Counted from the stretch's first letter, positions 16,412 through 55,860 are shown. The stretch is 64,000 nucleotides of DNA from Candidatus Altimarinota bacterium (GCA_024709505.1 JANJWP010000005.1:25037-89036), one strand, 5' to 3'. The notes: generated by a model not told the origin, from the letters alone. Numbers and translations: made by a program.

Positions 16412-16476
16412 TGGAGGCACGAAGGCGTCCGAGCGATTTCGACTCCATTATGAACGAGGACGCCTTCGTGCCTCCA
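16412..16476. repeat. 19-bp perfect inverted repeat with a CGATTTC-N10-TGA loop motif in the 5' leader of the DnaQ-DinG gene
   Basis: Arms TGGAGGCACGAAGGCGTCC (16412-16430) and GGACGCCTTCGTGCCTCCA (16458-16476); upstream promoter-like TTGGCT-17-TACAAT (16365-16393). Confidence 0.85.
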
Positions 16477-16504
16477 ATTCCATTCCCATACCGATTTTTT
16501 CCGA

Positions 16505-19252
16505 ATGCCTTCCATCGTCGCTTTCGATCTCGAAACCACCGGGCTCGATCCGAAATCCGATGCCATTATCGAGATCGCGATGGTCCGCTTTGACGAAAAC
16601 GGGACGGTCGAAGAGTTTTCGAGCCTCGTCAATCCCGGGGTTTCCATTTCCGAAGAAGTCGAGAACATTACCGGCATTTCCAATGCCGACGTCGCCGACG
16701 CCCCCGGATTTTGAGACATCCGGGAAAAAGTGGCGGCATTTTTTGGAAACGATCCGGTATTGGCCCATAATGCCGATTTCGATACGGCCTTCCTTTCGGC
16801 GTACGGACTCGATTTTTCCAACCGGACGGTCATCGATACGTTCAAGATCGCCCAGCTCGCTTTCCGAAACGAAAAGAGCTTGAACCTTTCCAATCTCGCG
16901 GACGCTTCCGGATACTTTCACGAATGAGCGCACCGCGCCTTGTCCGACGCCCGCGCAACGGTCGCGATCTATCGAGAGGCCTTACGGAGAATCGGGGAAT
17001 CTTCGGGCGTCGAAAACCGCGCCTACCGTTTTTTACGCGACTATTCTTCGCCCCTTTCGTCCTTTCCCGTCACGGTTCGGATGGCGCTCGGAGAAGAAAT
17101 GGAATCGACCGATGCGGCCGCGCTTTTCGCGCACACCGAATCGACTCTTTCGGAATACGCTCCTGATCCAGCGCCCGAGCGTCCTTTCGACGCTCCGGAT
17201 CCGGTAACGATTTTGGAATCCAATTCCGGATTGGAAAAACGTCCCGAACAAGCCCGGATGGCCGGACTCGTGCGCGATGCCATCGCTGCGAAATCCCTTC
17301 TTGCCATCGAAGCCCCCACCGGAATCGGAAAGACTTTCGCGTACATGGTTCCGGCAGTGGCTTCGGCCATGATCGACGGCGCGAGAATCCACGTTTCGAC
17401 CAATACCAAAACCCTCCAGGACCAAATCGCCTATAAGGACGTTCCGAAAATCCGCGACATCCTCGCTCCTTACGGACTTGCTTCGTTTCGTTTCGCCAAA
17501 CTCAAGGGGCGTTCCAACTACGCGAGCCTTTTGAAATTGTCGGAATTTCCCGAGCGCGACGGTTTTTCCGACGAAGCCAAGCTCTTTTTTGCCAAAATAA
17601 ACGTTCTTCTTTCCGAAAGCCGTACCGGCGAACTCGACGAGATTTCGTTTTACGGAAAGGACTACGAATTCCTTTCCGAAGTTCATTCCGGTGATGCCCG
17701 AGTGCTTTGGCCCGATAATCCGCATCGGAAAAAGGAACCGCTTTATGCCGCGAGGGAATCCGCAAAAGTCGCGGAAGTCGTGCTCGTGAACCATTCCCTC
17801 ATGCTTACCGAACTTTCCGATGATGCTTCGGCTTCGTCCGGAAAAGTTTCCCGCATGATCGTTGACGAGGCTCACAATCTCGAATCGGCCGCCACCGACG
17901 CGCTCACCCGAACGATTGTGCTTGCGGACGTTGAAAAAGCGTTCTTCCGCATCGAAGCCCATATTCGAAGGCACAACCGTCAATCATGAGCCGAGAAATT
18001 CCTGTTCCCCGAAATGAAGGAAATTTCCGAATCTTTCGTGCTGTCATTCGGAATGGCGCTTGATTTTGCCGAAAGGTACGCCTTCGTAAAAAGCGGGGAT
18101 TCCGCTTTTTCAAAGGGCGGATATGCCGCCGCACGGGGAACGGACGTGCTCGTTTGCGATGACTTTTTCACTTCCGAAGGAATTTCCGGAATGTCTTCGG
18201 TCGTATCGTCGGTTTTCGAAAAGTTCAAGGACCTTTCCGACCGACTTCGCTGCGCTCCGGAAAAACTTTCGGAAGCTTTTGACGCGCCGCTTTCCGAGCT
18301 TTCCGGATACGCGACGTTTCTCGAAGAATTTTTTTCGAGCTCCAGGCAGGACCTCATCAAGGTCGTTTCTTTCAAATGACCCGGAGAGTGCCGTCTTTCG
18401 ACCGCTCCGCTCGACGTTTCCGGAATCTTAAAGGAGCGTCTTTGGAACAAGCTCGAATCGGTCGTGCTCACGTCGGCTACGCTGGCGGTCGGTGGGGAAT
18501 TCGACTTCCTGAAAAAAACGCTCGGACTTACGGATTTTTCATTCTCCATTCTCGATTCCGACTTCGATTACCACTCGCAAGCGACCGTTTTTCTTCCCGA
18601 CGACCTCTGAGACATCCGAAACGAATATGATCGTCGCCGCATAAACGCCTTCGTCGCGAGGGCCATCGTCGCCATGGGCGGACGGACGCTCTGCCTCTTC
18701 ACGTCATTTTCAAGCATCAAGGAAGCGTACCTACAGATCAATCCGCTCTTAAAGAAAGAGGGGATCCACCTCCTTTCACAGGGGATGTCCGGAGGGAAGC
18801 ATAAGATGATCGAGCAATTCAAGCGCACCGCGGATAGGAGCGTCCTTTTCGGAACTGACAGTTTCTGGGAGGGGGTGGATATTCCGGGAAAGGATCTGGA
18901 AATGCTGTTCATCCATAAGTTTCCTTTTGCGGTTCCGACCGATCCGGTCGTCATGGCGAGATCGAGGCTGTTTCGCGATCCGTTTTCCGAATATTCCGTC
19001 CCGCAAATGCTTTTGAAGCTCCGTCAGGGAATCGGACGCCTCATCCGGACCAAGGAGGACCGCGGGGTCGTCGTCATTCTCGACGGCCGGATAAATTCGT
19101 CTTGGTGAAGGGCCGTCCCCTGAGCGTTTCCTCCCAATATCCGCATCAAAAGGGGGGCGATGGATGCTTTTGCTGAACTACTTGAGAAAAAGCGCGAAAA
19201 TTCGGTTTTACAAGCCTTGGAATCCGAAGGAAAAACCCCCTTCGCAAATTAA
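16505..19252 (+). CDS. dinG: DnaQ-type 3'-5' exonuclease / DinG-family helicase fusion
   Basis: DEDDh motifs FDLETTG, AHNADFD and HRALSDA; helicase motifs EAPTGIGKT, VDEAHNL, TSATL, FWEGVD and QGIGRLIR; seven in-frame TGAs (16712, 16925, 17987, 18377, 18608, 19106, 19121); stop TAA. Confidence 0.9.
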
Positions 19253-19300
19253 TCGTGAACCAAGGCGTTAAAAACGCAAGACGAACCTTCCTCCGCCTTT

Positions 19301-19329
19301 TTGCAATCAAAAAAGGAACGTGCTATACT
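19301..19329 (+). promoter_or_regulatory. Promoter of the type IV pilus operon
   Basis: TTGCAA-17-TATACT with an extended -10 TG. Confidence 0.65.
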
Positions 19330-19363
19330 TGCGTCGGTACTCTTAATTCCGTGCCGAACGCGT

Positions 19364-20272
19364 ATGGCATTTTTCCAAAATAAAAAAGACGGTCCGGAAG
19401 CTTCCGGACTTCCGTCTCCCGCCGCTTCCGGAAAGGACGGCGAAGCGCCGAAGGGCGAAGAAGCGACCCCCCTCGCCATAGGCGACGACATTTTCCAGGG
19501 ACTCGGCGAAAACTTTTTCAAAGACGCCCAAACCGCGACGAACCAGGAATCAAAAAAGAAGGATCCCTACGAAATCGGGGCCAAGACTTTCGATATTGGA
19601 ATGAAACTTGCCATCGTGCTCACGGTGCTTTTTTCCATTGATTCCACGGTCCGGAGCCAGGAAGAACCGGGCTTTTTGGAAAATCTGCCGGTATGCGACT
19701 ATTTGGCCATGGGCATCGACGGCCACGTCAACGACGAATGCAAAACCCTCGTGCAAATCGCCGCGGACAAGGCCGAGGAAAAAAAACAGGTCGAAACGAC
19801 CCTCGTAAACAATCTCCTCGTTCTCGTTCCGAAGCGTCTCGAGGCCGGAGACGCCCTCAACTCGCCCGAAGTCCAGTTCATCAAGGAGCGAACTGGAGAT
19901 GCCCGGGTTTCGTTCGCCGCGGTCGTTGACGAATTTCAGTCCATCGTCTCGAAGTCCGATTACAAGGGCGAAGACATCGAATGTTCGAAGTTCGTCTTCA
20001 ATGAAAGGGGGGAGCTTTCCGTTCGTTGCGAATTCTATGGGGACTCCCTCAATTCTTCGGCCTTCCGCGAATCGAGGTCTTCCCGCATGACGGCGCTTTC
20101 GTTTCTCGCAAGGCTCGAAAACAGCCCCTTCAAGGTGCTCAATTCTCCCAAAACGCTCGACATCCAAAAGTATTCCACCGCCGACGTCGGCATCCGTTCG
20201 ACCTTCTCGACCGTTACAAAATTGCAGTTGAATCTCCGTTACGTACCGACCGTAACCGGTAACCGCCCGTAA
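19364..20272 (+). CDS. Single-TM protein, possible PilN-like pilus alignment subunit
   Basis: One TM helix plus a coiled coil; first gene of the operon with pilB/pilC. Function inferred from position only. Confidence 0.55.
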   Translation: MAFFQNKKDGPEASGLPSPAASGKDGEAPKGEEATPLAIGDDIFQGLGENFFKDAQTATNQESKKKDPYEIGAKTFDIGMKLAIVLTVLFSIDSTVRSQEEPGFLENLPVCDYLAMGIDGHVNDECKTLVQIAADKAEEKKQVETTLVNNLLVLVPKRLEAGDALNSPEVQFIKERTGDARVSFAAVVDEFQSIVSKSDYKGEDIECSKFVFNERGELSVRCEFYGDSLNSSAFRESRSSRMTALSFLARLENSPFKVLNSPKTLDIQKYSTADVGIRSTFSTVTKLQLNLRYVPTVTGNRP

Positions 20273-20273
20273 T

Positions 20274-21545
20274 ATGAACCAGCAAACTCCCGTTATCGAC
20301 GAAGAGAACTTCGCCATCCAAGAAAAGAAGCGGAAGGAACGCCTGACCCGATCCATGGTCCTCAACGGCTTCCTCATCCTTTTAATGACTGCGGTATCCG
20401 CAAGCTACGCGCTCCCGAAATACGAGGAGATTTGGCTTAAACAGGACGAAACGAACGGGCTCATCGCGAAGATCGAGACGCTGAAGAACGATGGAATGAC
20501 TCCGTCGGAATTCGTTTCGGCCCTCGGCCGCGTGGCGGGAAAATCCGCGAAAAATCCCATCTTCGAAGACAAAGAAAAACTCTCCGAGGCCATGGAAAAG
20601 GATCCGCAATATTCCGGAACCTACTACGCTTGGCTCAACCAGGAAGTCGGAAAGGAATCGATGGATCGTTACGATCAGGTCATCGCCCAAAAGCGCGAGA
20701 TACTCGGCAACATCATTCCGACGTTTACCGATTCGCTTCCCGGAGAAAATCTGGGCTTCGATCGCGATCGCATCACGGTGGCGACGTTCATCCGCCATAT
20801 CGAGGAAAACATTTTCAAGCAATTCAAGGTTTCGGCCTTCACTCCGCTTGGAGTTGACCGGGTTTCTTTCGACAATTCCAAAACGTCCATCGTGAACATC
20901 GGCACCTTCAAAACCGATTTTTCCATCGAAGGCCAGAATTCCCAGATTATGAAGCTCGTCGAATACCTTCAGGATTCCGGGAAGGTAAAGGTTGAAAACG
21001 GAAAACTCGTCGCGCTCTATCCGACTTCGAAAAACAAGAAGGATCCGACCCTTTCGGACTTAAACAACCTCCTTATTACCATCGACACTCTGGACGCGGA
21101 GAAATCGTTTGCCAATCCGGAGGCGAAAAACACCGTCAAACTCGGACTTTCATTTTACGTAAAGGGGCGGACGTACGCTTCGCTCGTCGAAATCCGTTCG
21201 ATGGTCGTCGAAAAGATCAAGAAGCTCAAGGAAGACGTGGACAAGCTTTCTAAGACCTGCTCCGGAAAGAAAAATCCCGTTTGTGACACGGATGCCGGAG
21301 TCTCGGCGGTATCGGCGACGAAAAATCTCGTCTCCGAAATCGGTTCCATTGACCAAAAGGCCCAAGAAATGTTGAAAACCGCAACCGTTTCGGATCTTTC
21401 GGCCGAATTCGACAAGGTTTTCGCGATCTACGCTTCGGTTCGAACCGTTGAAACCGGATACCTCAAGCAGAAGGCCATCCTCGAGAAGGCGGTGAAGAAT
21501 TCGGCCGGAACGCCGGATTCCGGATCATCCAAAGCTCAGCAGTAA
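20274..21545 (+). CDS. Single-TM protein, possible PilO-like pilus alignment subunit
   Basis: N-terminal TM helix; PilO-like segment FSIEGQNSQIMKLVEYLQ...LITIDTL; 1 bp from the upstream gene. Confidence 0.55.
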   Translation: MNQQTPVIDEENFAIQEKKRKERLTRSMVLNGFLILLMTAVSASYALPKYEEIWLKQDETNGLIAKIETLKNDGMTPSEFVSALGRVAGKSAKNPIFEDKEKLSEAMEKDPQYSGTYYAWLNQEVGKESMDRYDQVIAQKREILGNIIPTFTDSLPGENLGFDRDRITVATFIRHIEENIFKQFKVSAFTPLGVDRVSFDNSKTSIVNIGTFKTDFSIEGQNSQIMKLVEYLQDSGKVKVENGKLVALYPTSKNKKDPTLSDLNNLLITIDTLDAEKSFANPEAKNTVKLGLSFYVKGRTYASLVEIRSMVVEKIKKLKEDVDKLSKTCSGKKNPVCDTDAGVSAVSATKNLVSEIGSIDQKAQEMLKTATVSDLSAEFDKVFAIYASVRTVETGYLKQKAILEKAVKNSAGTPDSGSSKAQQ

Positions 21546-21557
21546 CCGTTTTTCGAA

Positions 21558-22820
21558 ATGCAAACGAATTCGTACATCGAGCGCCTGAAGGAGGAGATAT
21601 ACAAGGGTGACAACGCCCAGCAAATCTGCAACCTCATCATCAGCGCGGCCGTCTCCGTCCGGTCTTCCGACATCCACATCGAACCGTTGTCGAATTATGT
21701 CCGCATCCGTTACCGCGTGGACGGCGTGCTCGAAGAAATTCTTGAATACCAACAGTTTCTCCATCCTCAAATCGTTGCCCGCTATAAGATTTTGGCCAAC
21801 CTCAAGATCGACGAGTCGCGCATGCCTCAGGACGGGCGCATTTCGGTAACCATCGACGAAAAACCTCTCGATCTTCGCGTTTCGACGCTCCCCACCGTTT
21901 CCGGCGAAAAGATCGTCATGCGCATCGTTGATAAATCCAAGAAGATTCCCGATCTCGACGTCCTTGGTATCGAAGGGCAGAACGGCGAAATCCTGAAACG
22001 CGCCATTTCGCTTCCGAACGGAATCATCCTCACTTCCGGCCCGACCGGCTCCGGTAAGTCCACGACCCTTTATTCGTGCCTTACCCGTCTGAACAAGCCC
22101 GATGTCAATATCATGACGCTCGAAGACCCGGTAGAAAACGTCATCGACGGGGTTAACCAGAGCCAGATGTTTCCGGATATCGGATACAATTTCGCTTCCG
22201 GCCTCCGCACGGCGCTCCGTCAGGATCCGGACATCATCATGGTCGGTGAAATCCGCGACCGGGAAACCATCAATATTGCCATTGAAGCCTCGCTTACGGG
22301 ACACTTGGTACTCTCGACCATCCATACCAACTCGGCTGCCGAAACGATTACCCGCATCCTCAACATGGGCATTCCGGCATTTCTCCTTCCGGCATCGATG
22401 AACGCCATCATCGCCCAACGCCTCATTCGCCGCCTCTGTCCGCATTGCCGCAAGCCCGTGCCGGCCGAATCACTTCAACCACGCATGCAGGAATCGGTGA
22501 AAAGGGCGATTTCGCGGACGAACAAGAAAGAACTTGCCTCCCGCGTTCCCGCTGAAATTCTCCAAAACCCCAAATTCTACGAACCCGTCGGTTGCGAACA
22601 CTGCGGCAATAGTGGATATTCGGGGCGGGCGGGAATCTATGAAATCATGGAAATCGGCCCCGAAATCAAGAAGCTCATTCTCGATAACGCCTCGGGCGTA
22701 CAGATCAACGAAACGGCCATCGATGCCGGGATGATTTCCCTCGAACAGGACGGAATCATGAAGGCCCTCAACGGTCTCACGTCCCTCGACGAAGTTTACG
22801 CCGCCGCCAAGGAAGGTTAA
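21558..22820 (+). CDS. pilB: Type IV pilus / T2SS extension ATPase (PilB/GspE family)
   Basis: Motifs SDIHIEP, PQDGR, GPTGSGKS, LEDPVE, LRQDPDIIMVGEIRD and STIHTN; two CxxC zinc motifs. Confidence 0.92.
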   Translation: MQTNSYIERLKEEIYKGDNAQQICNLIISAAVSVRSSDIHIEPLSNYVRIRYRVDGVLEEILEYQQFLHPQIVARYKILANLKIDESRMPQDGRISVTIDEKPLDLRVSTLPTVSGEKIVMRIVDKSKKIPDLDVLGIEGQNGEILKRAISLPNGIILTSGPTGSGKSTTLYSCLTRLNKPDVNIMTLEDPVENVIDGVNQSQMFPDIGYNFASGLRTALRQDPDIIMVGEIRDRETINIAIEASLTGHLVLSTIHTNSAAETITRILNMGIPAFLLPASMNAIIAQRLIRRLCPHCRKPVPAESLQPRMQESVKRAISRTNKKELASRVPAEILQNPKFYEPVGCEHCGNSGYSGRAGIYEIMEIGPEIKKLILDNASGVQINETAIDAGMISLEQDGIMKALNGLTSLDEVYAAAKEG

Positions 22821-22831
22821 TCCCCCATGCC

Positions 22832-23983
22832 ATGAATGCTCAAATGAACCAGGAAATCATCATCCAAGACGTCAAAAGCGACGGTCCGGACCAATCGGAG
22901 TCGGGCGGGCTTTTGGCGAAGTTCGAAAATTGGATGTTGAACCAGCAGCGGTTCAAGCTCAAACAGAAGGTCGTATTTTTCCGCTTGCTCGCCACGATGG
23001 CGAATGCCGGATTGCCGATCCTCAAATCGCTTTCGATTCTGGAACGCCAAGAAAAAAATCCGGTAGCGAAAACGTATTTCGGTCGCATGATCGCGGGCAT
23101 TAAGTCCGGAAAGAACCTTTCGGCCACGCTTCGCGATTTCGAGGGAAATTTTACCGATGCCGAATGCTCCATCATCGAATCCGGAGAAAAAACCGGTAAG
23201 CTCAACGGGGCGCTGGTACAACTTGCCGACCAAGTCGAAAAGGTCGCCGACATTTCCATGAAATTGAAAGGCGCGCTCATCTATCCGGCGGGAATCATCA
23301 TCGTCATGTTCATTTGTATCGGCGTGCTCATGACGCTCGTCGTACCCAAACTCGTCACGATTTTCGGCGAACGCGAAAAATTGCCGCCGATGACCCAATT
23401 CCTTCTCTCGGTCAGCGACGTGTTCGTGAATTATTGGTGGGCGATGGTCCTCTGTTTCGCCATCGTCGTAGCGTTTTTGAAGATTTGGAAAAACACTCCG
23501 GAAGGCCACTACCGTTTTGACATGGCGCTCCTCTACGTCCCCATCGTCGGTCCCATCGTCCGGAAGGTCGTGCTTTCAAAATTTTCCCGGGTCCTTTCCA
23601 ATCTCCTTTCTTCCGGAATTTCCATCGTCGAATCGTTGCGCATCGTTTCGGAAGTCGTCGATCACGAAGTGTACCGTCAGCGCATCATGCTTCTTCGCGA
23701 AGATATTAAGAAGGGCGTGAAAATCGGCGAGGGGCTCGAGGAAGACGCGCTCTTCCCGGACATGCTCGTGCAGATGATCAAGGTTGGCGAAGAAACGGCC
23801 CGTCTCGATACCATCATCTTGAAGATCGCCGATTTTTACGATGCCGAAGTCGATTCGACCGTCAACGCGATCAATAAGACCATCGAACCGGTCATCATCG
23901 TCATCATGGCGGTCGTTGTCGGATTCATCGCGTTGGGGATTCTCCAACCGATCATGAACCTTTCCGAAATCATGGCGGGGTAG
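22832..23983 (+). CDS. pilC: Type IV pilus platform protein (PilC/GspF family)
   Basis: Duplicated GspF domains (LATMANAGLPI...GEKTGKL; LLSSGISI...GEETARL...IEP) with three TM helices. Confidence 0.92.
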   Translation: MNAQMNQEIIIQDVKSDGPDQSESGGLLAKFENWMLNQQRFKLKQKVVFFRLLATMANAGLPILKSLSILERQEKNPVAKTYFGRMIAGIKSGKNLSATLRDFEGNFTDAECSIIESGEKTGKLNGALVQLADQVEKVADISMKLKGALIYPAGIIIVMFICIGVLMTLVVPKLVTIFGEREKLPPMTQFLLSVSDVFVNYWWAMVLCFAIVVAFLKIWKNTPEGHYRFDMALLYVPIVGPIVRKVVLSKFSRVLSNLLSSGISIVESLRIVSEVVDHEVYRQRIMLLREDIKKGVKIGEGLEEDALFPDMLVQMIKVGEETARLDTIILKIADFYDAEVDSTVNAINKTIEPVIIVIMAVVVGFIALGILQPIMNLSEIMAG

Positions 23984-23986
23984 GGG

Positions 23987-24031
23987 ACGAAACGAAAAAA
24001 GAGGGGGCATGCCCCCTCTTTTTCGTTTCGT
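23987..24031. terminator. Bidirectional terminator between convergent genes
   Basis: Near-perfect palindrome ACGAAACGAAAAAAGAGGGGGC-AT-GCCCCCTCTTTTTCGTTTCGT. Confidence 0.8.
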
Positions 24032-24039
24032 GAGATCGT

Positions 24040-24654
24040 TTAGGCGATCATTTTCAATTCTCCGGCGGCCTTCCGGGCCGATTCGACGGATTCCCGTTCG
24101 GTATTTGCGCTGAGCTTCGCCCGCGCTTCGGCGCCCCGGGCGATTTCAGCGGTGCGACGCTCGGTTTCGAGTTCTTGCGCGGCTTTGAGAACGGCCTTGG
24201 AAAATTCGAGCTTGCGTGCGTGTTCGATATCTTCGGCCGTTTTTTTCTCGTCCTGCTTTCTCCGTTTGTCGTTTTCCGCGTCCCGGCCTTCTTGGGTTCC
24301 GCGGACGCCTTCGAGTTTTTCAACGAGGGAAAGATAGGCTTTTTCGAGGGCCTTCTTCCGATCATCGGCATTTCCGATGGACTTCGCCGCTTCAATCGAT
24401 TTTTCGTATTCGGCCAAGTGGGGAGCGGACCATTCCGCAAATTCGTCCCTTTCGTTTTTTCCTCCGGATCATGCGTCGCTCCGCCGCGTCGAAAGGATTT
24501 CCGCATAGGCGCTCTTTCCGGCTTTCCGCATGAGGTCGAAAGTTCCTTCTTCCGATTCGGTCCGTTCCTTTCGGATGAGGGAATCCGCCTCTTCGATCCT
24601 TTTCTTTTCGAGGCGGAGTTCTTCTTCTCGGGATTCTTGCTTTTCGAGATTCAT
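24040..24654 (-). CDS. Hypothetical charged coiled-coil protein (204 aa)
   Basis: Two same-frame ORF pieces joined at TGA 24469; E/K/R/A-rich helical composition. Confidence 0.65.
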
Positions 24655-24756
24655 AATCGGTGCGGTTAGTTCGGTTCCATCATACCATGAACAGGACGAA
24701 AAGCCAAAAGCCAGGGAATCTTCGGGGGAATTCATCCGCCTCAAAAACCGGTCCGT

Positions 24757-25410: not shown

Positions 25411-25415
25411 GCTAT

Positions 25416-27036: not shown

Positions 27037-27079
27037 GAAAAGTCCCCTCGCTTTCAAAAGGAAAGCGAGGGGACTTTTT
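27037..27079 (-). terminator. Terminator downstream of rplS
   Basis: Hairpin AAAAGTCCCCTCGCTTTC-AAAAG-GAAAGCGAGGGGACTTTT. Confidence 0.8.
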
Positions 27080-34354: not shown

Positions 34355-34570
34355 CAATGGCTCCCCGAACAGGATTCGTTCCTCTCGTCCTCGGCTCCGC
34401 CTCGGCCGCTCGGAACGCCTTGCCTACGGAGCCAAATCGTTGGCTCCGTACCGAATCGCCGCAAGCGGACGATCCGGAAGGCTGCGGTTTCGAATCCCGT
34501 TCTTCTCGCACCCATGTTGAAAAACGAAAAAGGCCCCGTTCTTGCGAACGAGACCTTTTCTGTTTTTCAA
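34355..34570. mobile_element. Structured ~190-bp element bounded by a 24-bp direct repeat of the tRNA-Asn 3' end
   Basis: CAATGGCTCCCCGAACAGGATTCG occurs at 34355-34378 and 34568-34591; internal palindromes. Mobility is inferred, and no recombinase lies in the window. Confidence 0.55.
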
Positions 34571-34645
34571 TGGCTCCCCGAACAGGATTCGAACCTGTGA
34601 CCCACCGGTTAACAGCCGGTTGCTCTACCGCTGAGCTATCGAGGA
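34571..34645 (-). tRNA. tRNA-Asn(GTT)
   Basis: TCCTCGATAGCTCAGCGGTAGAGCAACCGGCT-GTT-AACCGGTGGGTCACAGGTTCGAATCCTGTTCGGGGAGCCA folds as a cloverleaf with encoded CCA; promoter TTGACT-16-TAGTAT (34701-34674). Confidence 0.97.
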
Positions 34646-35930: not shown

Positions 35931-35950
35931 GGCTCTGAAATTATGGAATA

Positions 35951-35979
35951 AGAAAACCCCCGGTCTTCCGGGGGTTTTC

Positions 35980-35980
<1 letters not shown>
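35951..35980. terminator. Bidirectional terminator; stem identical to 37747-37777
   Basis: AGAAAACCCCCGG-TCTT-CCGGGGGTTTTCT. Confidence 0.8.
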
Positions 35981-37380
<1,400 letters not shown>

Positions 37381-37746: not shown

Positions 37747-37777
37747 AGAAAACCCCCGGTTCGTCCGGGGGTTTTCT
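37747..37777. terminator. Bidirectional terminator after rpmG
   Basis: AGAAAACCCCCGG-TTCGT-CCGGGGGTTTTCT. Confidence 0.8.
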
Positions 37778-46172: not shown

Positions 46173-46224
46173 GAAAACTTCCGCCATACTTAACTATGGA
46201 ATTTTAACTTTTATCGTTTCCATC

Positions 46225-48483: not shown

Positions 48484-48515
48484 GGGGCGCCCAAGATATC
48501 CGAATGCTCCCATCT

Positions 48516-48548
48516 TCAAAAAGAGCTCCGACATGCCGGAGCTCTTTT
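48516..48548. terminator. Bidirectional terminator between the adhesin gene and PBP1A
   Basis: AAAAGAGCTCCG-ACATGC-CGGAGCTCTTTT. Confidence 0.7.
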
Positions 48549-48564
48549 ACATTTCCCACTTTCT

Positions 48565-51500
48565 TTATCTCGCCAATACCTCGAGCGCGACGTCCGTTTT
48601 TGATTTTCCTCGGCGGGCATCGGTCGATTCGATCGTCAGCACGTAATTTCCCGGAGCGAAATCCTTCCCTTCGTTCACGGCGACGACGAAGTCGTTCCCT
48701 CCTCAGAGAATCTTCCAAAGTTTTCCGTCCAAAAGAAGGTTGTTCGCCACGATTTCGTGCGCGTCGGCCACGCCAAAACGCAGGTTGAAAAACTGATCGG
48801 CATAGATTTTCACCGATCCGTTTTGCGGATTCGTCACGGTAATGACGGGGTCGTCGTTGCTCCCTTTCGCGAAGCGAACGGTCGTCTGGGTCCGGCCGGT
48901 ATATCCGTATTTATCCACCGCGACAATGGAAAGGGTATGTTCGCCCAAGAACGATTCGTCGAAATCAAATACCGCGCTTCGGTAGGTTCCGGAGGTTTTT
49001 TCCCCCTCTATGGCCACCTCCTTGAAGAGTTCGCCGTTCCGTTCGAATTTGAGTTTCACGACGGGAAATTCCGATTCGTAGGAAACTTCGATGGCGTTCG
49101 GACCGAGAGGCCGAACGTCAACGGCGTCGAGATTCGTCGAAATCGAAATTCTCGAAAGTCCGGAACCGGGACGTTCGCACACCTTGTCCTGATAGTCGGT
49201 AATGATGTTCCCCTTCGCTTCGGAGAAATAGGCTGAACCGGCTTCGGATCTTACCCACGAACGAATCGAAGCGAGCCAATCGGCCTGATAGGAATCGATA
49301 ATGGGATTTACGTTGACCAAGTATCCGCGCTTAATCGAATCCGGCGGAGTCGAACTCGTGACTTTGCCGTTACAAAGCGCGTCAACTTCGATTTCTTCCA
49401 TCGAATTTTCATAGGCCGTCGGCTTGACCGCGAAGATCGAATTGACCCGGAAATGCTCGGGCGTTTTTTCGCTCGCGAGCTTTCCGGAAATCGACGAAAT
49501 GGTCGCCGAATACACGCTGTCGGGTTTCGCGAAAGATTCCTTCGGAAGATTTCGATGGGCAAATTCCATGTACCCCTTCCAAATCGGGGCGGCGCAATTG
49601 AGTCCGTCGCACGTTCCCTTCGTTTCGGTTCCATCAACGTTCCCCGCCCAAACGACGGTCGTGATTTGCGGAGTGTACCCGGCCGTCCATAGGTCGCGTG
49701 GCAGAATTTTTTTCTCCTTCCCGACACTCACGTCCTTGTTGGAAGTTCCGGTTTTTGCGGCAACCGGCCGGTCTTTGAGGGTAAGGACGTTGTTCCAAAA
49801 ATCGCTCGGACGACTTTTGGCATCCGATAAAATGACGGAAAGAAGATAGGAGGCAGCATCCGAAAAAACGTACTTTCCATTGGATTCGACGTAGCGGTCG
49901 ATGACGTTTCCTTTTCGGTCTTCAATCCGGAGAATCGGCACGATTTCCTTTTTCCAACCCCCGCCCGCAAACACGCTGTAAGCCGAAGCGAGTTCCAGGG
50001 GTTTGAGTTCTCCGGTCCCTATCGAAAGCGGCGCTCCATAATCGGCGCCTTCGCGAAGCGAGAGGACCCCGAGACTCCGAGCGAATTTCACGATTTCCGA
50101 CTCACCCCCCGCAACGTAGAACATCTTGATGGCGGGAATGTTGCGCGAATAGTCGAGCGCCGTTCGAACACTCATTTTTCCCAGGAATTTCCGATCGTAG
50201 TTATCGGGTTCCCATTTTCCGAATTTCGTTTCCACGTCGTAGACGGGGGTGTCGGGCGAAACCGCTTCCTTCGACATGGCAAGGGCGTAAACGATGGGCT
50301 TGAAGCTCGATCCGGGTTGGCGCTTCGCGGTAACCATGTTCACGTTTCCTCCGTTCTTCTCGTCAAAATAGTCCGGTCCCCCGACCATCGAGAGAATCTG
50401 TCCGGTCTTATTGTCGATGGCGACGAGAGCGGCGGAACTGGCACCGTATTTTTCCTTGTTTACGGCCACCTGCTGTTTGACGAGCTCTTCGGCCTTGTCC
50501 TGCAAGGTCGGATCGATGGTGGTATAGATCTTCAATCCGCCCTGCGATTCGAAATCCTTTCCGAATTTTTGTTCGAGATAGTCCTTTACGAAAAACACGA
50601 AGTGGGGGTATTTGATGTTTTCGCTGTATTTCCGGAATTGGAAGTGAATGCCTCAAACGATGACCTCCTTGTATTCTTCGGCCGTGATTTTTCCATCTTC
50701 CAAGAGTCGTCCGGCGACGAAATCCTTGCGTCCGGTATTGTATTCGAGGAAGCGTTTCGTCTCGGCACCGCTTCCGGATATGCCGCTTCCGGAGAGCGTC
50801 GCGCCCGAAGCGGACGATATCCGGAAACTGTTCAGGAGCGCGAGGAAATCCTTGTATTGGATGTTGGCGCAACCGTCCGAATCGATGCGGTACGGGTTTT
50901 TCAGGTCGCCTTGGGAAAGGCCGCACACTTCCGCGTCTTCGGGCGATTTCCGGGTTATTTCCAGATTTTGGACGACACTCTTGAAGGCTTCCACGAGGAA
51001 AGCGTATTCGACAAGCTTCTCCGGAGTGTCGAGAAGTACCTTTTCGTTTTCGTCCGATTCCGGATATACGTAAAGGTATCCCATCAGACGGTCCCGGTGC
51101 GAATAGGGCGAATAGTAGGTCGGCCCCTTCGGGAGCGACGCGAGAATCGTCGAACCGAGGATTCCCACGTCTTTAATGCTCTTTCCGAAGTAGGTCTTCG
51201 AAGCTTCTTCGACTCCGAAGGCGTTGTTTCCGAACGAAATCTTATTGAGGTAGAGTTCGAGAATTTTTTCCTTGGAATATTTCGCGTTCATCAAATACGA
51301 AAGGTACGCCTCTTTGATTTTGCGTTCCATCGAACGTTCGTCGTTCAAAAACGTAATCTTGATGAGTTGCTGCGAAATGGTAGACGTTCCTTGGATGCGT
51401 TCGGTTTTTCCAAAGGCGAAATTCAACACCGACCGAACGAGCCCCTTCAAATCGATGCCCGGATTTTCAAAAAACGTTTTGTCCTCGGCGGCGATGATCG

Positions 51501-51846
51501 CTTCCTTCATTCGGTCGGAGATTTCGGAATATCCGACGTAAGTGCGCTTTTCTTCGCGGTAAAGCTTGTAGAGTTCGCCGCCGTTCCGGTCGTAGATGAC
51601 GGTGCTTTCGGGCAGTACGTCCTTTTCGATGGAATCGATAGAAGGAAGTCCGTGCAAAAAGACGAAGTAGGTCGCGATGACCGAAAGGAACGCGAACGAA
51701 GCGAGCGTTATCGCGAGATACAGCGTGACGAAATGTGCCGGGCGTTTTTTGGAAAAAAAGGCCGGCAGGCGTGAACGGAGCGATTTTCGGACCGGACGAA
51801 CGGAAAACGGTTTCCGAGAGTTTCCGTTACGGTGATGGAGGTTCAT
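48565..51846 (-). CDS. Class A penicillin-binding protein (PBP1A, transglycosylase-transpeptidase) with C-terminal Ig-like extensions
   Basis: AEDKTFF, QGTSTISQQL, RKIKE and YLN; QPGSSFKP, SRN and KTGT; TGA at 50653 and 48703. Confidence 0.93.
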
Positions 51847-51860
51847 CGTTCTTCGGGGGA

Positions 51861-53324
51861 TTAACGGAAGAAAAGGGAATGGTCGGGACCGAGGATGATT
51901 TCTATTTTCGGTCCCGGGGTTTTGGAATATTTAGTCTCGGGCACGGCTTCTGGATCGGAAAAAACGAAAAGCGAGAGGGCGGCAAGCGTTGGGGAATCAG
52001 GACCGATTCCGGTTTTGGCGGCTTCATCCCAAGGATGGAGGACCGCCGTTTTGGCATAAGGATCCTTCGTGGAAGAAACGGAGTCTTTTTCGGGTACGTT
52101 GAAGCCGTAGCGCTTGAGGAAGAGCGCCGCGGAATTGGCAATTCCCGACTGCCTTGTGGAATTCACGACGTTGATTTCAATTTTTTCCAAAAACATTTCC
52201 GGATAATTGAAAACGAGGTTGGCAAAACGGTTGACGCTCCGGTATTCGCTGATTTTTCCAGGAGTCGCCCCGTCGGGCAGAAGTACGCTCGCACCGCCGA
52301 AAAGATCTCGGGCGGGGGTATAGAGAAATCCTCCGCGGTCACAGAGGGAAAGCGATTGGAAACACGAATCGTTCAAGTTGAACGAAAGGATGTTTTCCGA
52401 GGGGAGCTCCTTGGCAAAAAGGGCGAGCGCGGCCATTTCTTTCAAACTCAGGTCGGTTTGGACGTTGTTTGACACCGCGGCGTACAGCGCTTGGATTTTT
52501 GCCGGATTGGAAAGGGTTCCGAGCGAAAGGAGTTTGTCCTTAAGCGCCCGAACGAGAAGCTGTTGGCGGATGGACCGGTCAAAATCCGAAGTGGAATGCC
52601 TTGAACGGGCGTACATGAGGGCGGTTTTTCCGTTGAACGTCTGCTGCCCCTTTTTTACCCGGAACGTCATATAACCCCAGTTGTCATCGGGATATTGCGT
52701 ATCCACGAGATCTTCGGGGACGTCCACTTCAAGTCCGCCCAACACGTCAACGAAGCTGACGAACGCGTTGAAATCAACGTTCAGGGTTTTGTCGATGCGT
52801 TCGCCCGTAATTTCGGAAACCTTGCCCGCAAGGGTCAATATGGCCGTTTCATGGTTTTTTTTGGAGGCCGCATAGGCTCTCCGGTAGGTTTCGTTGATCT
52901 TTCCCCTTCCTCCGGTCGGATATTCGACGTACAAGTCACGGGGAATGGAAAGCATGGAAACCGTCTTCGACTTCGCATTGAGGCTCGCGAGAATGATCGT
53001 ATCGGTCAAATCCCCTCCCTCATGGGAAGCACCCCCCATTCCGGTGAGAAGAATGTTGTATTTTCCCGAAGGAAGCCCTCCCGAAGTTTCGTCGGGCCGA
53101 AATACCGAAGGAAGGAGCGAAAAAGACGGCAACGGAATCGAAAGTTTCACGTTGGCAATCTGCGCGAAGGCGGCGCTTCCGATGCCGAGCACCGCGAGCA
53201 CCGCGATTCCTCAAAGGAGATAGGCGGAAAACGTGTTTCGCACGCGGATGGTTTCGTAAGCGTCGCGAACGGAAACGAAACGCCCGCTTTGGACGCCTGA
53301 AATCTTGGTTTTTTTAAAAGACAC
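51861..53324 (-). CDS. LCP (LytR-CpsA-Psr) family cell-wall glycopolymer ligase with a LytR_C domain
   Basis: NILLTG, TDTIIL, SIPRDL, KIN, VDVLGG, YARSRH.SDFDR..RQ and VVNST..SGIA; TGA at 53211; GTG start at 53324 is inferred. Confidence 0.9.
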
Positions 53325-53632
53325 GGTGGATGGTTCGTGGAAGATGGGGGATAAACCCCGAAAACAGGCTCCGGCACACCTTATATATGCCGGACATGCG
53401 CATGATTATAAAAACGGGAGGCAAAATCGCAAGGTTCGGGTCGGAGTTTTTCACATTTGGAAACTCAACGTTTGGAAAATGTGTAAAACTTTTAAAATCC
53501 CAACAATTACTATCATCTATTTGTCAATGGAATCCGAAACAACCGTTTCTCCTTTTAGTTGACAACAAAACGGAAAAGCGTAACTTCCACCGTGACAAAA
53601 ACGAAAACCAAGTTCTTTACGCGTTTCTGACA

Positions 53633-54610
53633 GTGACTACGGAAATACGTACATCCGAATTCGAACATGTACCCGTACTCTTCGATGAAGCCGTTTCTTC
53701 CCTAGGGTTAGAGAAGAACCGGCCGATTACCGTAATAGACGCAACGCTCGGACTCGGGGGCCACGCCTCCGAAATCGTGAAACGCCTCCCCGAAAAAAGC
53801 ACGTTCGTCGGCTTCGACCGAGACCGTACCAATTTGGAACAGGCGAAAAACCGGGTGCTTTGCGAAAACGAAACGGCAATCCGATCGAAGGGCCTCCGGC
53901 TCGAGTTTGTGGAATCCGATTTCCGAAAGCTGAAAGAAAAACTCTCCGATTTGGGAATTTCCCGTATCGATTCGATCCTTTACGACCTCGGGGTATCAAG
54001 CGCTCACTACGACGACGGCGAACGGGGGTTTTCCTTCCGATTCGACGGTCCGCTCGACATGCGCTTCAACCGGACGGACGACTCCCCCACCGCCGCGGAT
54101 TTCCTCGCGCGGGCAAGCGAGCCGGAAATTCTTCGCGTCCTGCGCGATTACGGCGAAGAGCCCAAGGCATTCTTCATCGCGAAAGCGGTGGTCGAAACGC
54201 GCAAGGCCTATTCGCTTAAGACGACCGGGGACTTCCTGAAACTCATCGAAGAAGCCAGCTTCGATCCCAAGTCGAAGACCCGGGCGTTCCAGGCCATCCG
54301 CATCGCCGTAAACGACGAATTCGGCTCCATCGAAGATTCGCTCCGCCAGGCGGTCGAACTTCTCCGTCCCGAAGGCAGGCTGTCGGTCATCACGTTCCAT
54401 TCCCTCGAAGACCGCCTCGTCAAAACGGTGTTCAAAGAGTTCGAACGCGACGTTCCCGACGAGCTCACCGGCATGCCCATCGTCAAAGCGCTCCTCAAAA
54501 AGGCCCATAAGAAACCCATCGAACCAAATCCGGAAGAAGTGAAGAACAATCCCCGATCCCGCAGCGCGAAGCTCCGGGTTTGCGAAAAAATACGTACGAC
54601 CTCCGACTAA
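53633..54610 (+). CDS. rsmH: 16S rRNA C1402 N4-methyltransferase (MraW)
   Basis: HVPVL, DATLGLGGH, DLGVSS, GPLDMR, FQAIRIAVNDE, FHSLEDR and NPRSRSAKLR; GTG start inferred. Confidence 0.96.
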   Translation: MTTEIRTSEFEHVPVLFDEAVSSLGLEKNRPITVIDATLGLGGHASEIVKRLPEKSTFVGFDRDRTNLEQAKNRVLCENETAIRSKGLRLEFVESDFRKLKEKLSDLGISRIDSILYDLGVSSAHYDDGERGFSFRFDGPLDMRFNRTDDSPTAADFLARASEPEILRVLRDYGEEPKAFFIAKAVVETRKAYSLKTTGDFLKLIEEASFDPKSKTRAFQAIRIAVNDEFGSIEDSLRQAVELLRPEGRLSVITFHSLEDRLVKTVFKEFERDVPDELTGMPIVKALLKKAHKKPIEPNPEEVKNNPRSRSAKLRVCEKIRTTSD

Positions 54611-54626
54611 CCCCATTCCGCAAGGT

Positions 54627-54992
54627 ATGAACGCGAACGTCCTCGTCATGAAAAAAGGCAACTTCCCGTTTTTCTCGTCCCGAAAGACGAGTCGGGAAAA
54701 CTTCCGTCTTTCGTTCACCGAAACCTACGTTCTCGCTCTCGGCCTCATCGGAATCCTCGGAATCTATTACGTATTCATGCTCAACGTCAACGCGACCAAG
54801 GGCTACAACGTCCGGAATCTCGAAATTGAACGTAAGAATCTCGTTTTCGAACAGAATCTCCTCAACATCAAGATTGCCGAAGCCGAATCGCTCTCTTCCA
54901 TTTCCGAAAATCCTTCCATCGGAAAAATGGAGCTCATCGATACGCCGCGTTACCTCGTCATGAAGGATTCGCTCCTTACGCTCAAGAAGTAA
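54627..54992 (+). CDS. FtsL-like bitopic membrane protein
   Basis: One TM helix plus a coiled coil, directly after rsmH (the usual ftsL position). Confidence 0.6.
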   Translation: MNANVLVMKKGNFPFFSSRKTSRENFRLSFTETYVLALGLIGILGIYYVFMLNVNATKGYNVRNLEIERKNLVFEQNLLNIKIAEAESLSSISENPSIGKMELIDTPRYLVMKDSLLTLKK

Positions 54993-55002
54993 TTCCGGAA
55001 CG

Positions 55003-55071
55003 AGCGGACGAACGAAACGCTCCCGTCTCAGTCGGTTCCGAAAATCGACGGAATCGATTCGTTCGTCCGCT
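55003..55071. repeat. Hairpin element (14-bp perfect arms) with a CCGTC-TCAG-N10-AAATC-GACGG core, upstream of recR
   Basis: Arms AGCGGACGAACGAA and TTCGTTCGTCCGCT; the core is the reverse-complement counterpart of the core at 55758-55785. Confidence 0.85.
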
Positions 55072-55091
55072 GCCGAAACTCCTCAAGACCG

Positions 55092-55682
55092 ATGCCCGAA
55101 TCGCTCCAAAAGCTCGTCGAGCTCATCTCGTATCTTCCATGAATCGGAGAAAAGACCGCGACCAAACTCGCGTTCTTTTTATTGAAGGCCAACCCTTCGT
55201 TCATTCGCGACCTCTCCGACCGCATATCGCGGGTGCAGTCGGACATCCGGGAATGTCCGGTCTGTTTTTCCCTTACCGACCGTTCCGACCGCCCCTGCGC
55301 GATTTGCGAAGACCATTCGCGCGACGGGCGCTCGCTCTGCGTCGTGGAGGATTATCTTGATCTCGTCTCCATCGAACGCCTTGGAATTTACAAGGGACGC
55401 TACCACGTTTTGGGCGGTTCCGTTTCGCCCATGCATGGACGCATGCCCTCCGACTTGCACATGAAAGAACTTTTCGAGCGCGTAGAAAAAGACGGTTTCG
55501 AAGAACTCATTCTCGCGACCAATCCGAATATCGAAGGAGAGGCTACGTCGCTCTACATTAAAGAAAACGTAAAGACGCCGAGCATTCGCATCACTCGACT
55601 CTCCCGAGGGCTTCCGAACGCCGGATTTATCGAATATGCCGACGACCTCACGCTCATCAACGCGTTCCGCGGCAGAGGATAA
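55092..55682 (+). CDS. recR: Recombination mediator RecR
   Basis: HhH motif LP*(G)IGEKTA (TGA 55140), C4 zinc finger, and TOPRIM motifs CVVE, YHVLGG and ATNPNIEGEAT. Confidence 0.95.
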
Positions 55683-55860
55683 GGGATTCGGGATTCCGAA
55701 AAACCGCTCTCTATCGGCCTTCGAAAATTTTTGGAGGATGGCGAGCCGGAGCTCAGACCGTCGATTTCACGAAGGGCTGAGACGGGATGAACTCCGGCTC
55801 CCCATGCCGAAACCTTTCGATCGGCCTCAAAGGTCGCGGATTTCCGGAATTCCGAATCCC
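55683..55860. ncRNA. 178-nt rod-like structured element (6S-RNA-like candidate or repeat element)
   Basis: Terminal arms GGGATTCGGGATTCCG..CCGC and GCGG..CGGAATTCCGAATCCC, a central bubble, and an apical stem ATGGCGAGCCGGAGCTCA / TGAACTCCGGCTCCCCAT. Confidence 0.45.

What the first reader, a model, noticed from the sequence alone, without database searches (positions are those of the whole stretch)
16412..55805. Family of long hairpins with a conserved loop motif, each directly upstream of a DNA-repair gene
Seen: three intergenic hairpins have unrelated stem sequences but share the apical motif CGATTTY-N9/10-TGA(G)ACG. (1) 16412-16476 has 19-bp perfect arms and loop CGATTTC-gactccatta-TGAACG, before dnaQ-dinG. 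(2) 55003-55071 has 14-bp perfect arms and the motif in reverse orientation (CCCGTCTCAG-tcggttccga-AAATCGACGG), before recR. (3) 55738-55805 has 18-bp arms with 2 mismatches and CCGTCGATTTC-acgaagggc-TGAGACGGG, before ung. None is followed by a T-tract. Inference: divergent stems that keep their pairing, a fixed quasi-palindromic loop and orientation independence point to a DNA-level (cruciform or ssDNA) recognition site. It could be an undescribed damage-response operator in a repair regulon, or an attC/REP-like recombination substrate. Copies 2 and 3 also flank recR in inverted orientation, as an invertible or captured cassette would. The match in copy 1 is weaker and n=3.
Basis: partly seen in the sequence, partly recalled or inferred. 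Interest (0 to 1): 0.75.

Follow-up and report, generated by a model that had tools for sequence, protein, structure and literature searches.

The report
Dispersed palindromic hairpin repeats, not operators
The three hairpins are copies of a lineage-specific palindromic repeat that occurs about twenty times in this small genome, sometimes in frame inside genes, so they look like selfish DNA rather than a switch for DNA-repair genes.

Summary
The three hairpins are real and far beyond chance. Copies 2 and 3 share a conserved apex; copy 1 belongs to a related subtype. They are 3 of 20 such hairpins that I counted in this 1.17-Mb, TGA=Gly genome. Each has variable, co-varying stems and a conserved apical module (5' C-GA-Y ... 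R-GA-G 3' around a small mini-hairpin). Many sit inside 140-290-nt nested palindromes with conserved internal junctions. Orientation relative to neighbouring genes is mixed.

In congeneric genomes the same sites are filled, empty, or filled with another subtype in the other orientation: copy 2 is missing in 3 of 4, copy 1 in 4 of 5. Some copies lie in frame inside genes (Mfd at two different positions, CopA, a PriA-like gene, TsaD, UvrC) and encode a shared peptide. This is the behaviour of Rickettsia palindromic elements.

The family was found only in one genus: 0 hits in 38 genomes of 23 sister genera, and 4 MAGs among 185,579 species genomes. No HUH, TnpB, IS110, rve or DDE transposase, integron integrase or L7Ae protein was found.

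A conserved repair operator and a recR cassette are not supported. A weak excess of repair-gene neighbours (6 of 26 independent sites) is unresolved.

The parts
16412..16476 (+). Copy 1. A 65-nt hairpin of the 'E' subtype, with 19-bp perfect arms and apex GAGCGATTTCGACTCCATTATGAACGAG. It lies in the 5' leader of dnaQ-dinG, downstream of a -10-like TACAAT.
   Evidence: G005 has an ortholog with the same apex and a different stem. The hairpin is absent in G001, G002, G003 and G004.
55003..55071 (-). Copy 2. A 69-nt hairpin of the 'A' subtype with the motif on the minus strand, in the spacer between the small gene after rsmH and recR.
   Evidence: R2, E 1.4e-11. It is absent in G001, G002 and G004. 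A minor DNA contig in run X1 skips 54993-55087. RNA-library contigs bridge it.
55738..55805 (+). Copy 3, inner hairpin. 'A' subtype, apex GTCGATTTCACGAAGGGCTGAGAC.
   Evidence: R2, E 2.0e-13. Its apex is identical over 26 nt to the copy at C5:27408-27433. The strain in run X4 has C>G at 55742, which turns the C.C mismatch with 55801 into a pair.
55680..55863 (.). Copy 3, outer imperfect palindrome (184 nt). It encloses the inner hairpin and fills nearly the whole recR-ung spacer.
   Evidence: (63 of 81 aligned positions complementary, 4 blocks) and the fold. G001, G002 and G004 have a type-D element here in either orientation, with a related outermost stem. G003 has a 32-nt spacer.

Best explanation
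The hairpins are copies of a genus-restricted family of selfish palindromic repeats, comparable in behaviour to Rickettsia palindromic elements.

Anatomy. Each copy is a 65-290-nt imperfect palindrome. It has one or two variable stems, a conserved apical module and, in long copies, a conserved internal junction. The apical module is 5' C-GA-Y ... R-GA-G 3', which reads as tandem G.A pairs, around a small variable mini-hairpin.

Shown:
- There are about 20 copies in this genome, in several subtypes and in either orientation.
- They lie in spacers, in 5' leaders and in frame inside linker-coding parts of genes.
- They were gained within the history of one genus, and are present or absent among congeners.
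- Where orthologous copies persist, the apex and junctions stay fixed while the stems change and remain paired.

Inferred:
- No recent copying has occurred. The closest pair of copies is 89% identical over 112 nt, and no known transposase was found.
- Much of the presence/absence pattern may be recurrent deletion of old insertions.
- Pairing is kept either by selection for a folded single strand or by intra-strand templated correction of quasi-palindromes during replication. The lack of a G.T versus A.C bias fits a DNA-level process.
- The conserved unpaired modules are what some trans-acting factor recognises on the folded strand.
- Their position next to repair genes is incidental, or reflects where insertions are tolerated. 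It is not regulation.
For: Census. The own-genome hairpin scan and folds give 20 copies: 5 type A, 6 type B, 6 type C/D and 3 type E. Model R1 finds 12 copies at E<=1e-10. Model R2 finds 5 type-A copies at E<=2e-9.

Nested palindromes and conserved junctions.

Mixed orientation relative to flanking genes.

Covariation (26 sequences): 88.5% of cells are paired against 68.1% in shuffles (0 of 500 shuffles reach the observed value). 18 of 19 stem pairs show changes on both sides. Slid controls give 25-47% paired. G.T 28 versus A.C 21.

Site polymorphism among congeners. A minor contig in run X1 lacks copy 2.

In-frame intragenic copies:
- Mfd of this genome has a 41-46-aa insert that was absent in G001, G004, G003, G006 and G013.
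- Mfd of G001 and G004 has another insert, near the N-terminus, that was absent in G000, G003, G006 and G013.
- Both inserts encode GTAAT.T.LGARSA.
- Further intragenic copies: the CopA linker between two HMA domains, and a PriA-3'BD protein, TsaD and UvrC in G001/G004.

Distribution:
- R1 hit 4 of 151 genomes of the order: G000, G001, G004 and one weak hit in G054.
- R2 hit 3 of 41 genomes of the family, all of this genus.
- The exact type-D apex occurs in 16 stretches from 4 MAG assemblies in a collection of 185,579 species genomes.

Properties of Rickettsia palindromic elements are taken from passages of the review PMC10969869.
Against: - No mobilising enzyme was identified. Y1_Tnp, TnpB, IS110, rve and DDE_Tnp_1 were not found in a 98%-complete assembly, so mobility is inferred from phylogenetic pattern only.
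- There are no near-identical copies, and no clear target-site duplication. The only candidate is a possible imperfect CCGRAAC at copy 2.
- A strongly conserved apex and junctions, together with stems that keep pairing over species divergence, are what a functional RNA or DNA structure would also show.
- Mini-hairpins with UUCG, GUAA and GAA loops and tandem G.A pairs look RNA-like.
- A possible excess of DNA-repair neighbours is unexplained: 6 of 20 own sites, and 6 of 26 sites outside the discovery set.
- Gene calls are my own codon-model calls, checked with Pfam only for the neighbours.
Confidence: 0.6

Rival explanations
1. The hairpins work as RNA. They are co-transcribed with operons, and the conserved tandem-G.A apex is bound or cut by a protein (processing, stabilisation or translational control). 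The family would be a domesticated cis-element set, possibly of mobile origin.
For: - The apex and junctions are conserved across species while the stems co-vary.
- The mini-hairpins carry UUCG, GUAA and GAA loops typical of RNA.
- Contigs from two RNA libraries run through copy 2: X3 covers 54300-55259 and X5 covers 54970-55120.
- Copy 1 lies in a 5' leader, between a -10-like box and the start codon.
Against: - Orientation relative to the transcribed strand is mixed, and orthologous copies are flipped between congeners.
- The stems show no excess of G.U over A.C mismatches (28 versus 21).
- No L7Ae-family protein was found.
- Copies are dispensable in close relatives.
- Contigs from an RNA library do not prove transcription.
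Confidence: 0.2
2. One reading: a DNA-level operator (cruciform or single-stranded DNA) of an undescribed damage-response regulon controlling repair genes.
For: Repair genes are over-represented among neighbours or hosts in raw counts.
- Own genome: DinG, RecR, UDG, Mfd, RecJ and RuvA, at 6 of 20 sites.
- G001/G004: PriA-like with UvrD beside it, Mfd, RuvA and UvrC, at 4 of 13 sites.
- Outside the discovery set and after merging orthologous sites: 6 of 26 sites. The binomial P ranges from 0.004 to 0.32 for assumed site baselines of 6-18%.
Against: - The sites are not conserved at orthologous promoters.
- Several repair-gene cases are in-frame insertions inside the coding sequence, not in promoters.
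- 14 of 20 own sites have no repair neighbour: ATP synthase, ArgRS, GrpE, L9, CopA and others.
- The baseline is an assumption recalled from general knowledge, not measured.
Confidence: 0.04
3. attC-like recombination sites: recR is a captured or invertible cassette flanked by inverted copies.
For: - The hairpins are conserved in structure and variable in sequence.
- Copies 2 and 3 flank recR in opposite orientation.
- Similar pairs flank a PGM gene in G001 and G004.
Against: - recR lies between the same neighbours in G001, G002 and G004 without copy 2.
- The three tyrosine recombinases are Xer-like. They score 117, 98 and 56 bits against the integron-integrase cut-off of 265.
- The conserved part is the apex, not the base of the stem.
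- Copies are dispersed and in both orientations.
- DNA contigs of X1 and X4 show only the reference arrangement plus the empty-site form.
Confidence: 0.03
4. Factor-dependent transcription terminators or attenuators.
For: They are long, stable hairpins in spacers, often starting right after a stop codon.
Against: - None has a T-tract.
- The genome uses ordinary A-run/stem/T-run terminators elsewhere in the window (I5, I7, I8, I9, I16).
- Some copies lie inside ORFs.
- RNA-library contigs run through copy 2.
Confidence: 0.03

Closest known systems
Rickettsia palindromic elements (RPE), a MITE-like family
   Same: - Short palindromic repeats, present in tens of copies in a small genome of a host-dependent bacterium.
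- Found in spacers and, unusually often, in frame inside unrelated genes, where they add a conserved peptide.
- Restricted to one lineage.
Properties of RPEs come from passages of review PMC10969869.
   Different: - Here only the apex and the internal junctions are conserved, while the stems differ between copies.
- Many copies are nested double palindromes of up to about 290 nt.
- The host reads TGA as Gly, so only TAA and TAG must be avoided.
- Sequence homology to RPE families was not tested, because no RPE sequence was at hand, and it is not expected.
REP / BIME / REPIN repeats mobilised by RAYT (Y1 HUH transposase)
   Same: Dispersed extragenic palindromes in both orientations. They form hairpins, with compensatory changes in the stems.
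   Different: - In REPs the stem sequence and a 5' GTAG-type tetranucleotide are the conserved part (recalled). Here it is the loop.
- No Y1_Tnp gene was found.
- Copies also lie inside genes.
Integron attC sites
   Same: Structure is conserved while sequence varies. Recognition as a folded single strand is a plausible analogy.
   Different: - attC conserves core sites at the base of the stem, and attC sites lie in one orientation in arrays next to intI (recalled).
- Here the apex is conserved and copies are dispersed.
- No integron integrase was found.
Classical MITEs (Correia, ERIC and similar)
   Same: Non-autonomous short repeats that fold into rods, can fuse with ORFs and are polymorphic between relatives (review passages).
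   Different: - No terminal inverted repeats are shared by all copies.
- There is no clear target-site duplication.
- No parent IS or transposase of the five families searched was found.

Membership tests
RPE-like selfish palindromic repeats | Many dispersed copies of a short palindromic element in one small genome | tested here: met
   20 copies in 1.17 Mb.
RPE-like selfish palindromic repeats | Copies inserted in frame in unrelated protein-coding genes, encoding a shared peptide | tested here: met
   Mfd at two positions, a PriA-3'BD protein, CopA, TsaD and UvrC. The shared peptide is GTAAT.T.LGARSA.
RPE-like selfish palindromic repeats | Sequence homology to the described Rickettsia RPE families | not tested
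I claim 'works like', not membership.
REP/REPIN-RAYT | Conserved stem with a 5' GTAG-type tetranucleotide (recalled definition) | tested here: not met
   The stems vary and the apex is the conserved part.
REP/REPIN-RAYT | A RAYT (Y1 HUH transposase) gene in the genome | tested here: not met
   PF01797 gave 0 matches in the own genome at 98% completeness. The control search rings in 6 of 14 genomes.
Integron attC | Integron integrase present, with sites in arrays in one orientation | tested here: not met
   The best integron-integrase score is 117 bits against a cut-off of 265. Copies are dispersed over at least 11 contigs in both orientations.
Integron attC | Conserved core sites RYYYAAC/GTTRRRY at the base of the stem (recalled consensus) | tested here: not met
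   Read from the alignments. The stem bases vary or carry CTCGG..CCTGCG or GCAAAC..GTTTGC, which do not fit the consensus.
MITE | Terminal inverted repeats shared by copies, target-site duplication, and a related IS with a transposase | tested here: inconclusive
   The outer stems differ between copies. There is one possible imperfect 7-bp duplication, at copy 2. Y1_Tnp, TnpB, IS110, rve and DDE_Tnp_1 were not found. Other transposase families were not searched.
Regulon operator (SOS-box-like) | Site conserved at orthologous promoters of the regulated genes in related genomes | tested here: not met
   Copy 1 is present in 1 of 5 congeners, and copy 2 in 0 of 4. The copy-3 site holds another subtype or orientation in 3 congeners and is empty in 1.
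Intrinsic terminator | G+C-rich stem followed by a U-tract | tested here: not met
   No T-run follows any of the three copies.
K-turn / box C/D-type RNA | Tandem G.A pairs next to a 3-nt bulge, bound by an L7Ae-family protein | tested here: not met
   Tandem G.A is possible by reading, but extra U residues on the other strand do not fit the K-turn layout (recalled). PF01248 gave 0 matches.

The most novel reading that the evidence does not exclude
The family is a 'structure-coded' element. The conserved tandem-G.A apex and the junction would be read on a folded single strand by an as yet unknown factor, with no known transposase present. That factor would both spread the element and keep its stems paired. 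The recurrent hits in or beside Mfd, UvrC, PriA-like, RecR, UDG, RecJ, RuvA and DinG would then be real and functional. For example, the hairpins could tune genes that process stalled forks and hairpins, or could exploit them.
Probability: 0.12. Interest if true: 0.8.

Novelty: new variant of a known kind. Interest (0 to 1): 0.5.

Why it matters
It shows that an ultra-small, TGA=Gly genome of the Patescibacteria/Gracilibacteria type carries a dynamic family of palindromic repeats. These repeats remodel spacers, 5' leaders and even protein linkers. Mfd was hit independently at two positions, as happens in Rickettsia.

For annotation, the long hairpins should not be read as regulatory sites or RNA genes. 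They can also break assemblies and inflate ORFs.

The conserved-apex, variable-stem layout with no known transposase is unusual for such repeats. That makes the family a tractable case for two questions: how palindromes are kept paired, and what recognises them.

I found no description of such elements in this group in four literature searches. The library covers open-access papers and preprints only.

Tried and rejected
- Rfam at gathering thresholds over the whole window found only tRNA-Asn.
- The type-B apex pattern in 41 relatives matched only G000 (7 matches, one of them in coding sequence), G002 (1), G003 (1, the same coding match) and G032 (1, not a hairpin). It was too specific, so I replaced it with covariance models.
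- I checked five weak R1 candidates in the own genome (C2:5954, C3:6381, C20:14075, C4:15805, C26:21967). I dropped them because they are not convincing hairpins or lie in ordinary coding sequence.
- I dropped L020 (C23:47573) as a coding match.
- Retron link. The genome has one retron-type RT with a plausible ncRNA upstream, and its msd apex shares 12 nt with the type-C mini-hairpin. However, the RT was found in only G000, G004 and G005, and not in G001, which has 16 elements. Rejected.
- Are the stems inverted copies of the target flank? One arm of the outer stem resembles the sequence at the empty site at Mfd site 1 (G004), at the PriA-like site and at the UvrC site. It does not at copy 2. 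A one-arm remnant left after hairpin deletion explains this equally well. Unresolved.
- No RNA-library contig covered copy 3. A hole in contig cover proves nothing.
- No inversion joint of recR appeared in DNA contigs. Contigs drop rare forms.
- A first shuffle script timed out; it was rerun.
- No protein fold or complex prediction was needed.
Full report
OBSERVATION

The inverted-repeat scan of the window lists them among its four longest pairs (30 pairs found, 25 listed):
- 16412-16476: 19-nt arms, 100% complementary, 27 nt between.
- 55003-55071: 25-nt arms at 88%, 19 nt between.
- 55738-55805: 25-nt arms at 84%, 18 nt between.

Perfect arms of at least 14 nt, 10-60 nt apart, occur 4 times in the window. 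The mean in 40 shuffles is 0.075 and the maximum is 1.

Copy 2 on the minus strand and copy 3 on the plus strand share CCGTCGATTT...CTGAGACGGGA. Copy 1 is only loosely similar.

Pfam confirms the neighbours under table 25: sulfatase | DnaQ-DinG, RsmH - small ORF | RecR | UDG. Rfam gives nothing at these sites.

A LARGER FAMILY

I laid the whole assembly (1.17 Mb, 33 contigs, 53.6% G+C) and scanned it for hairpins. Many more long hairpins appeared, with different stems and recurring apexes. After folding and inspection I count 20 copies.
- Five are type A, with apex GNCGATTT..(C/A)TGAGNC. These include copies 2 and 3. The copy at C5:27385 has an apex identical to copy 3 over 26 nt and an unrelated stem.
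- Six are type B, with apex CGACGAYATCAYGMAGGRC..CGGAGGA.
- Six are type C/D, with apex GCRGCGACTTY-minihairpin-(G/A)GAGC.
- Three are type E, with loops containing CYCCATWA. Copy 1 belongs here.

All types share 5' C-GA-Y ... R-GA-G 3' at the top of the stem. By reading, this can form tandem G.A pairs, and type B has two such units in a row. The core encloses a small variable mini-hairpin with UUCG, GUAA or GAA-type loops. This reading of the structure is an inference.

Many copies sit inside larger imperfect palindromes of 137-289 nt. Conserved junctions lie between the outer and inner stems:
- Type B: CRCAAACGTCCTCGG ... CCTGCGRATTGTTTGCC.
- Type D: CGCTCGCTCCAGTCCTCGG ... CCTGCGGAGTCGCTCGCTTGAAA, or TCCTCGGCTGGTCCTCGG ... 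CCTGCGGAGGCCATCG.

Copy 3 has such an outer palindrome, at 55680-55863. Orientation relative to flanking genes is mixed. The closest pair of copies in the genome is 89% identical over 112 nt, and all other pairs share only the apex.

STRUCTURE IS MAINTAINED

I aligned 26 type C/D copies from G000, G001 and G004 and counted pairs on a structure I specified.
- 88.5% of cells are paired, against 68.1% in shuffles; 0 of 500 shuffles reach the observed value.
- 18 of the 19 pairs of the long stem show changes on both sides.
- Sliding the 3' partner by 1-3 columns drops pairing to 25-47%.
- Among stem mismatches, G.T (28) and A.C (21) are about equal. So there is no sign that only one strand, as RNA, is under selection. 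This is a weak test.

Orthologous copies at the Def|PGM site in G000, G001 and G004 keep the junction and apex. Their stems differ at many positions but stay paired.

COMPARISON WITH CONGENERS

Copy 2. The spacer before recR is about 74-77 nt shorter in G001, G002 and G004, and it has no hairpin. G003 has a spacer of about 330 nt there, with a different large palindrome that carries the type-B junction motif. In DNA run X1 a minor contig (depth 4.8, against about 105 for the main form) skips 54993-55087.

Copy 3. G001 has a type-D element in one orientation, and G002 and G004 have one in the other orientation. Their inner stems differ but the outermost stem is related. G003 has a 32-nt spacer with no element.

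Copy 1. G005 has a hairpin at the same place, with the same apex (CGATTTCAACTCTGTTATGAGAG) and a completely different stem. G001, G002, G003 and G004 have none. The insertion lies between a conserved -10-like TACAAT and the start codon.

None of the three sites is therefore conserved in the way an operator would be.

COPIES INSIDE GENES

Pfam on the neighbours showed elements inside open reading frames that have domains on both sides.

In this genome, a type-D copy lies in mfd between the UvrB-interaction and RID domains. A type-B copy lies in copA between two HMA domains.

Protein alignments give the following:
- G000 Mfd has a 41-46-residue insert (..SAGPRVGRTDGTAATSTLLGARSAGPSDDSAEAIEG..). 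It is absent in G001, G004, G003 and two other genera (G006, G013). G002 has a different insert at that place.
- G001 and G004 Mfd have an insert near the N-terminus (..GTAATLT.LGARSA..). It is absent in G000, G003, G006 and G013. G002 and G005 carry other inserts there.

In G001 and G004, further copies lie in frame in a PriA-3'BD protein, in TsaD, in UvrC and in one unknown ORF. All five intragenic type-D copies use the 9-nt mini-hairpin variant, and all use the one reading frame that avoids its TAA and TAG.

According to the passages I read of review PMC10969869, this behaviour is the hallmark of Rickettsia palindromic elements.

DISTRIBUTION

Model R1 (types B, C and D) hit 4 of 151 genomes sampled from the order: G000 (12), G004 (11), G001 (16) and one weak hit in G054. 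G003 had none at E<=0.001.

Model R2 (type A) hit 3 of 41 genomes sampled from the family: G000 (9, of which 4 are weak cross-hits to type B), G004 (4) and G003 (2). It hit none in 38 genomes of 23 other genera.

The exact type-D apex occurs in 16 stretches, from four MAG assemblies, in the collection of 185,579 species genomes. Their records are titled 'uncultured Candidatus Peribacteria bacterium' or 'Patescibacteria group bacterium'. The own genome may be left out of that scan.

CANDIDATE MACHINERY

The following were not found in the own genome, which is 98% complete: Y1_Tnp, TnpB zinc ribbon, IS110, rve, DDE_Tnp_1 and L7Ae. Other transposase families were not searched.

There are three tyrosine recombinases. 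All are Xer-like and score far below the integron-integrase cut-off.

There is one retron-type RT (St85-like, E 5.5e-59), with a plausible ncRNA upstream. It was found in only G000, G004 and G005, and not in G001, which has the most R1 hits. I do not link it to the family.

RNA DATA

Only contigs were available. Contigs from two RNA libraries bridge copy 2 (X3 covers 54300-55259; X5 covers 54970-55120). None covers copy 3. This fits read-through but does not prove transcription.

A near-identical strain in run X4 has C>G at 55742. This converts the C.C mismatch with 55801 into a pair. It is a single anecdote.

THE REPAIR-GENE ASSOCIATION

In the own genome, 6 of 20 sites have a repair gene as neighbour or host: DinG, RecR twice, UDG sharing a site with RecR, Mfd, RecJ and RuvA. 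The other 14 do not.

In G001 and G004, 4 of 13 distinct sites do: PriA-like with UvrD beside it, Mfd, RuvA and UvrC.

That leaves 6 of 26. The binomial tail is 0.004, 0.025, 0.13 or 0.32 for assumed site-level baselines of 6, 9, 13.5 or 18%.

The baseline is recalled general knowledge about small genomes, not a measurement. The test is also post hoc. I therefore treat the excess as unresolved. Tolerance of insertions in long, weakly expressed multidomain genes is a simple alternative.

MECHANISM

Shown:
- The elements were gained within the genus.
- They are polymorphic among congeners.
- The apex and junctions are conserved.
- Stem pairing is maintained.
- Some copies are in frame in coding sequence.

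Inferred:
- The copies are old, and many absences may be deletions, to which palindromes are prone.
- Pairing is kept by selection for a folded strand, by templated correction within quasi-palindromes during replication, or by both. Templated correction would also explain the lack of wobble bias.
- The unpaired conserved modules are recognition sites for an unknown factor.

At three filled/empty comparisons, one arm of the outer stem resembles the sequence at the empty site. This could mean that stems grow by inverted copying of the flank. It could equally mean that a single arm is left after deletion. I could not decide between these.

LITERATURE

Four searches (listings and abstract starts only) found no description of such repeats in Gracilibacteria or the candidate phyla radiation. 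One search listed the Rickettsia papers. Of these I read only passages of PMC10969869. I consulted no supplements.

VERDICT

The interpretation as a repair operator or a cassette is not supported.

The best reading is a new, lineage-specific variant of RPE/MITE-like selfish palindromic repeats with an unusual conserved-apex, variable-stem, nested design and no known mobilising enzyme.

Noticed in passing
L036 (G000:C32:29-3610), RT ORF 1258-2289 minus strand; upstream about 2290-2560: There is a single retron-type reverse transcriptase (NCBIfam retron St85 family, E 5.5e-59, below the curated cut-off). The leader just upstream of it folds like a retron ncRNA: flanking inverted repeats CCGTTCCTG/CAGGAACGG and a long hairpin. 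A 351-aa ORF of no known family lies upstream and pyrG lies downstream.
   Followed up: partly
window 55140-55142 and throughout: TGA is read as a sense codon. The conserved RecR motif LPGIG has its first G encoded by TGA, and many Pfam-confirmed genes carry in-frame TGA. This fits NCBI table 25.
   Followed up: partly
window 16388-16393: A -10-like TACAAT lies about 120 nt upstream of the dnaQ-dinG start. It is conserved as (G/A)ATA(C/G)AAT in G001, G002, G004 and G005. Copy 1 is inserted between it and the start codon.
   Followed up: partly
window 27038-27078, 35947-35984, 37747-37777, 56535-56565, 23987-24031, 34517-34570: These are ordinary bidirectional terminator-like hairpins (A-run, G+C stem, T-run). 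They are distinct from the family. One lies directly beside tRNA-Asn at 34571-34645.
   Followed up: no
G000:C25 end (20009-20074) and C31 start: The flanks of one G004 element (L063, in or beside tsaD) map to the end of contig C25 and the start of contig C31 of this assembly. The assembly therefore seems to break at or near an element.
   Followed up: no
L085 (G002), L088 (G005), Mfd N-terminal region: G002 and G005 carry other inserts, about 20 and about 70 residues long and of unrecognised origin, at the same two Mfd positions where the type-D inserts lie. These linkers are hot spots for insertion.
   Followed up: partly
L069 1380-1570 (G001, RlmL|PPase spacer): Two family elements lie in tandem in opposite orientation in one spacer. 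The orthologous G000 spacer is about 140 nt shorter and has neither.
   Followed up: partly
window 16511-19252: DnaQ-like exonuclease and DinG-like helicase are fused in one 900-plus-aa ORF (RNase_T, DEAD_2 and Helicase_C_2 domains).
   Followed up: no
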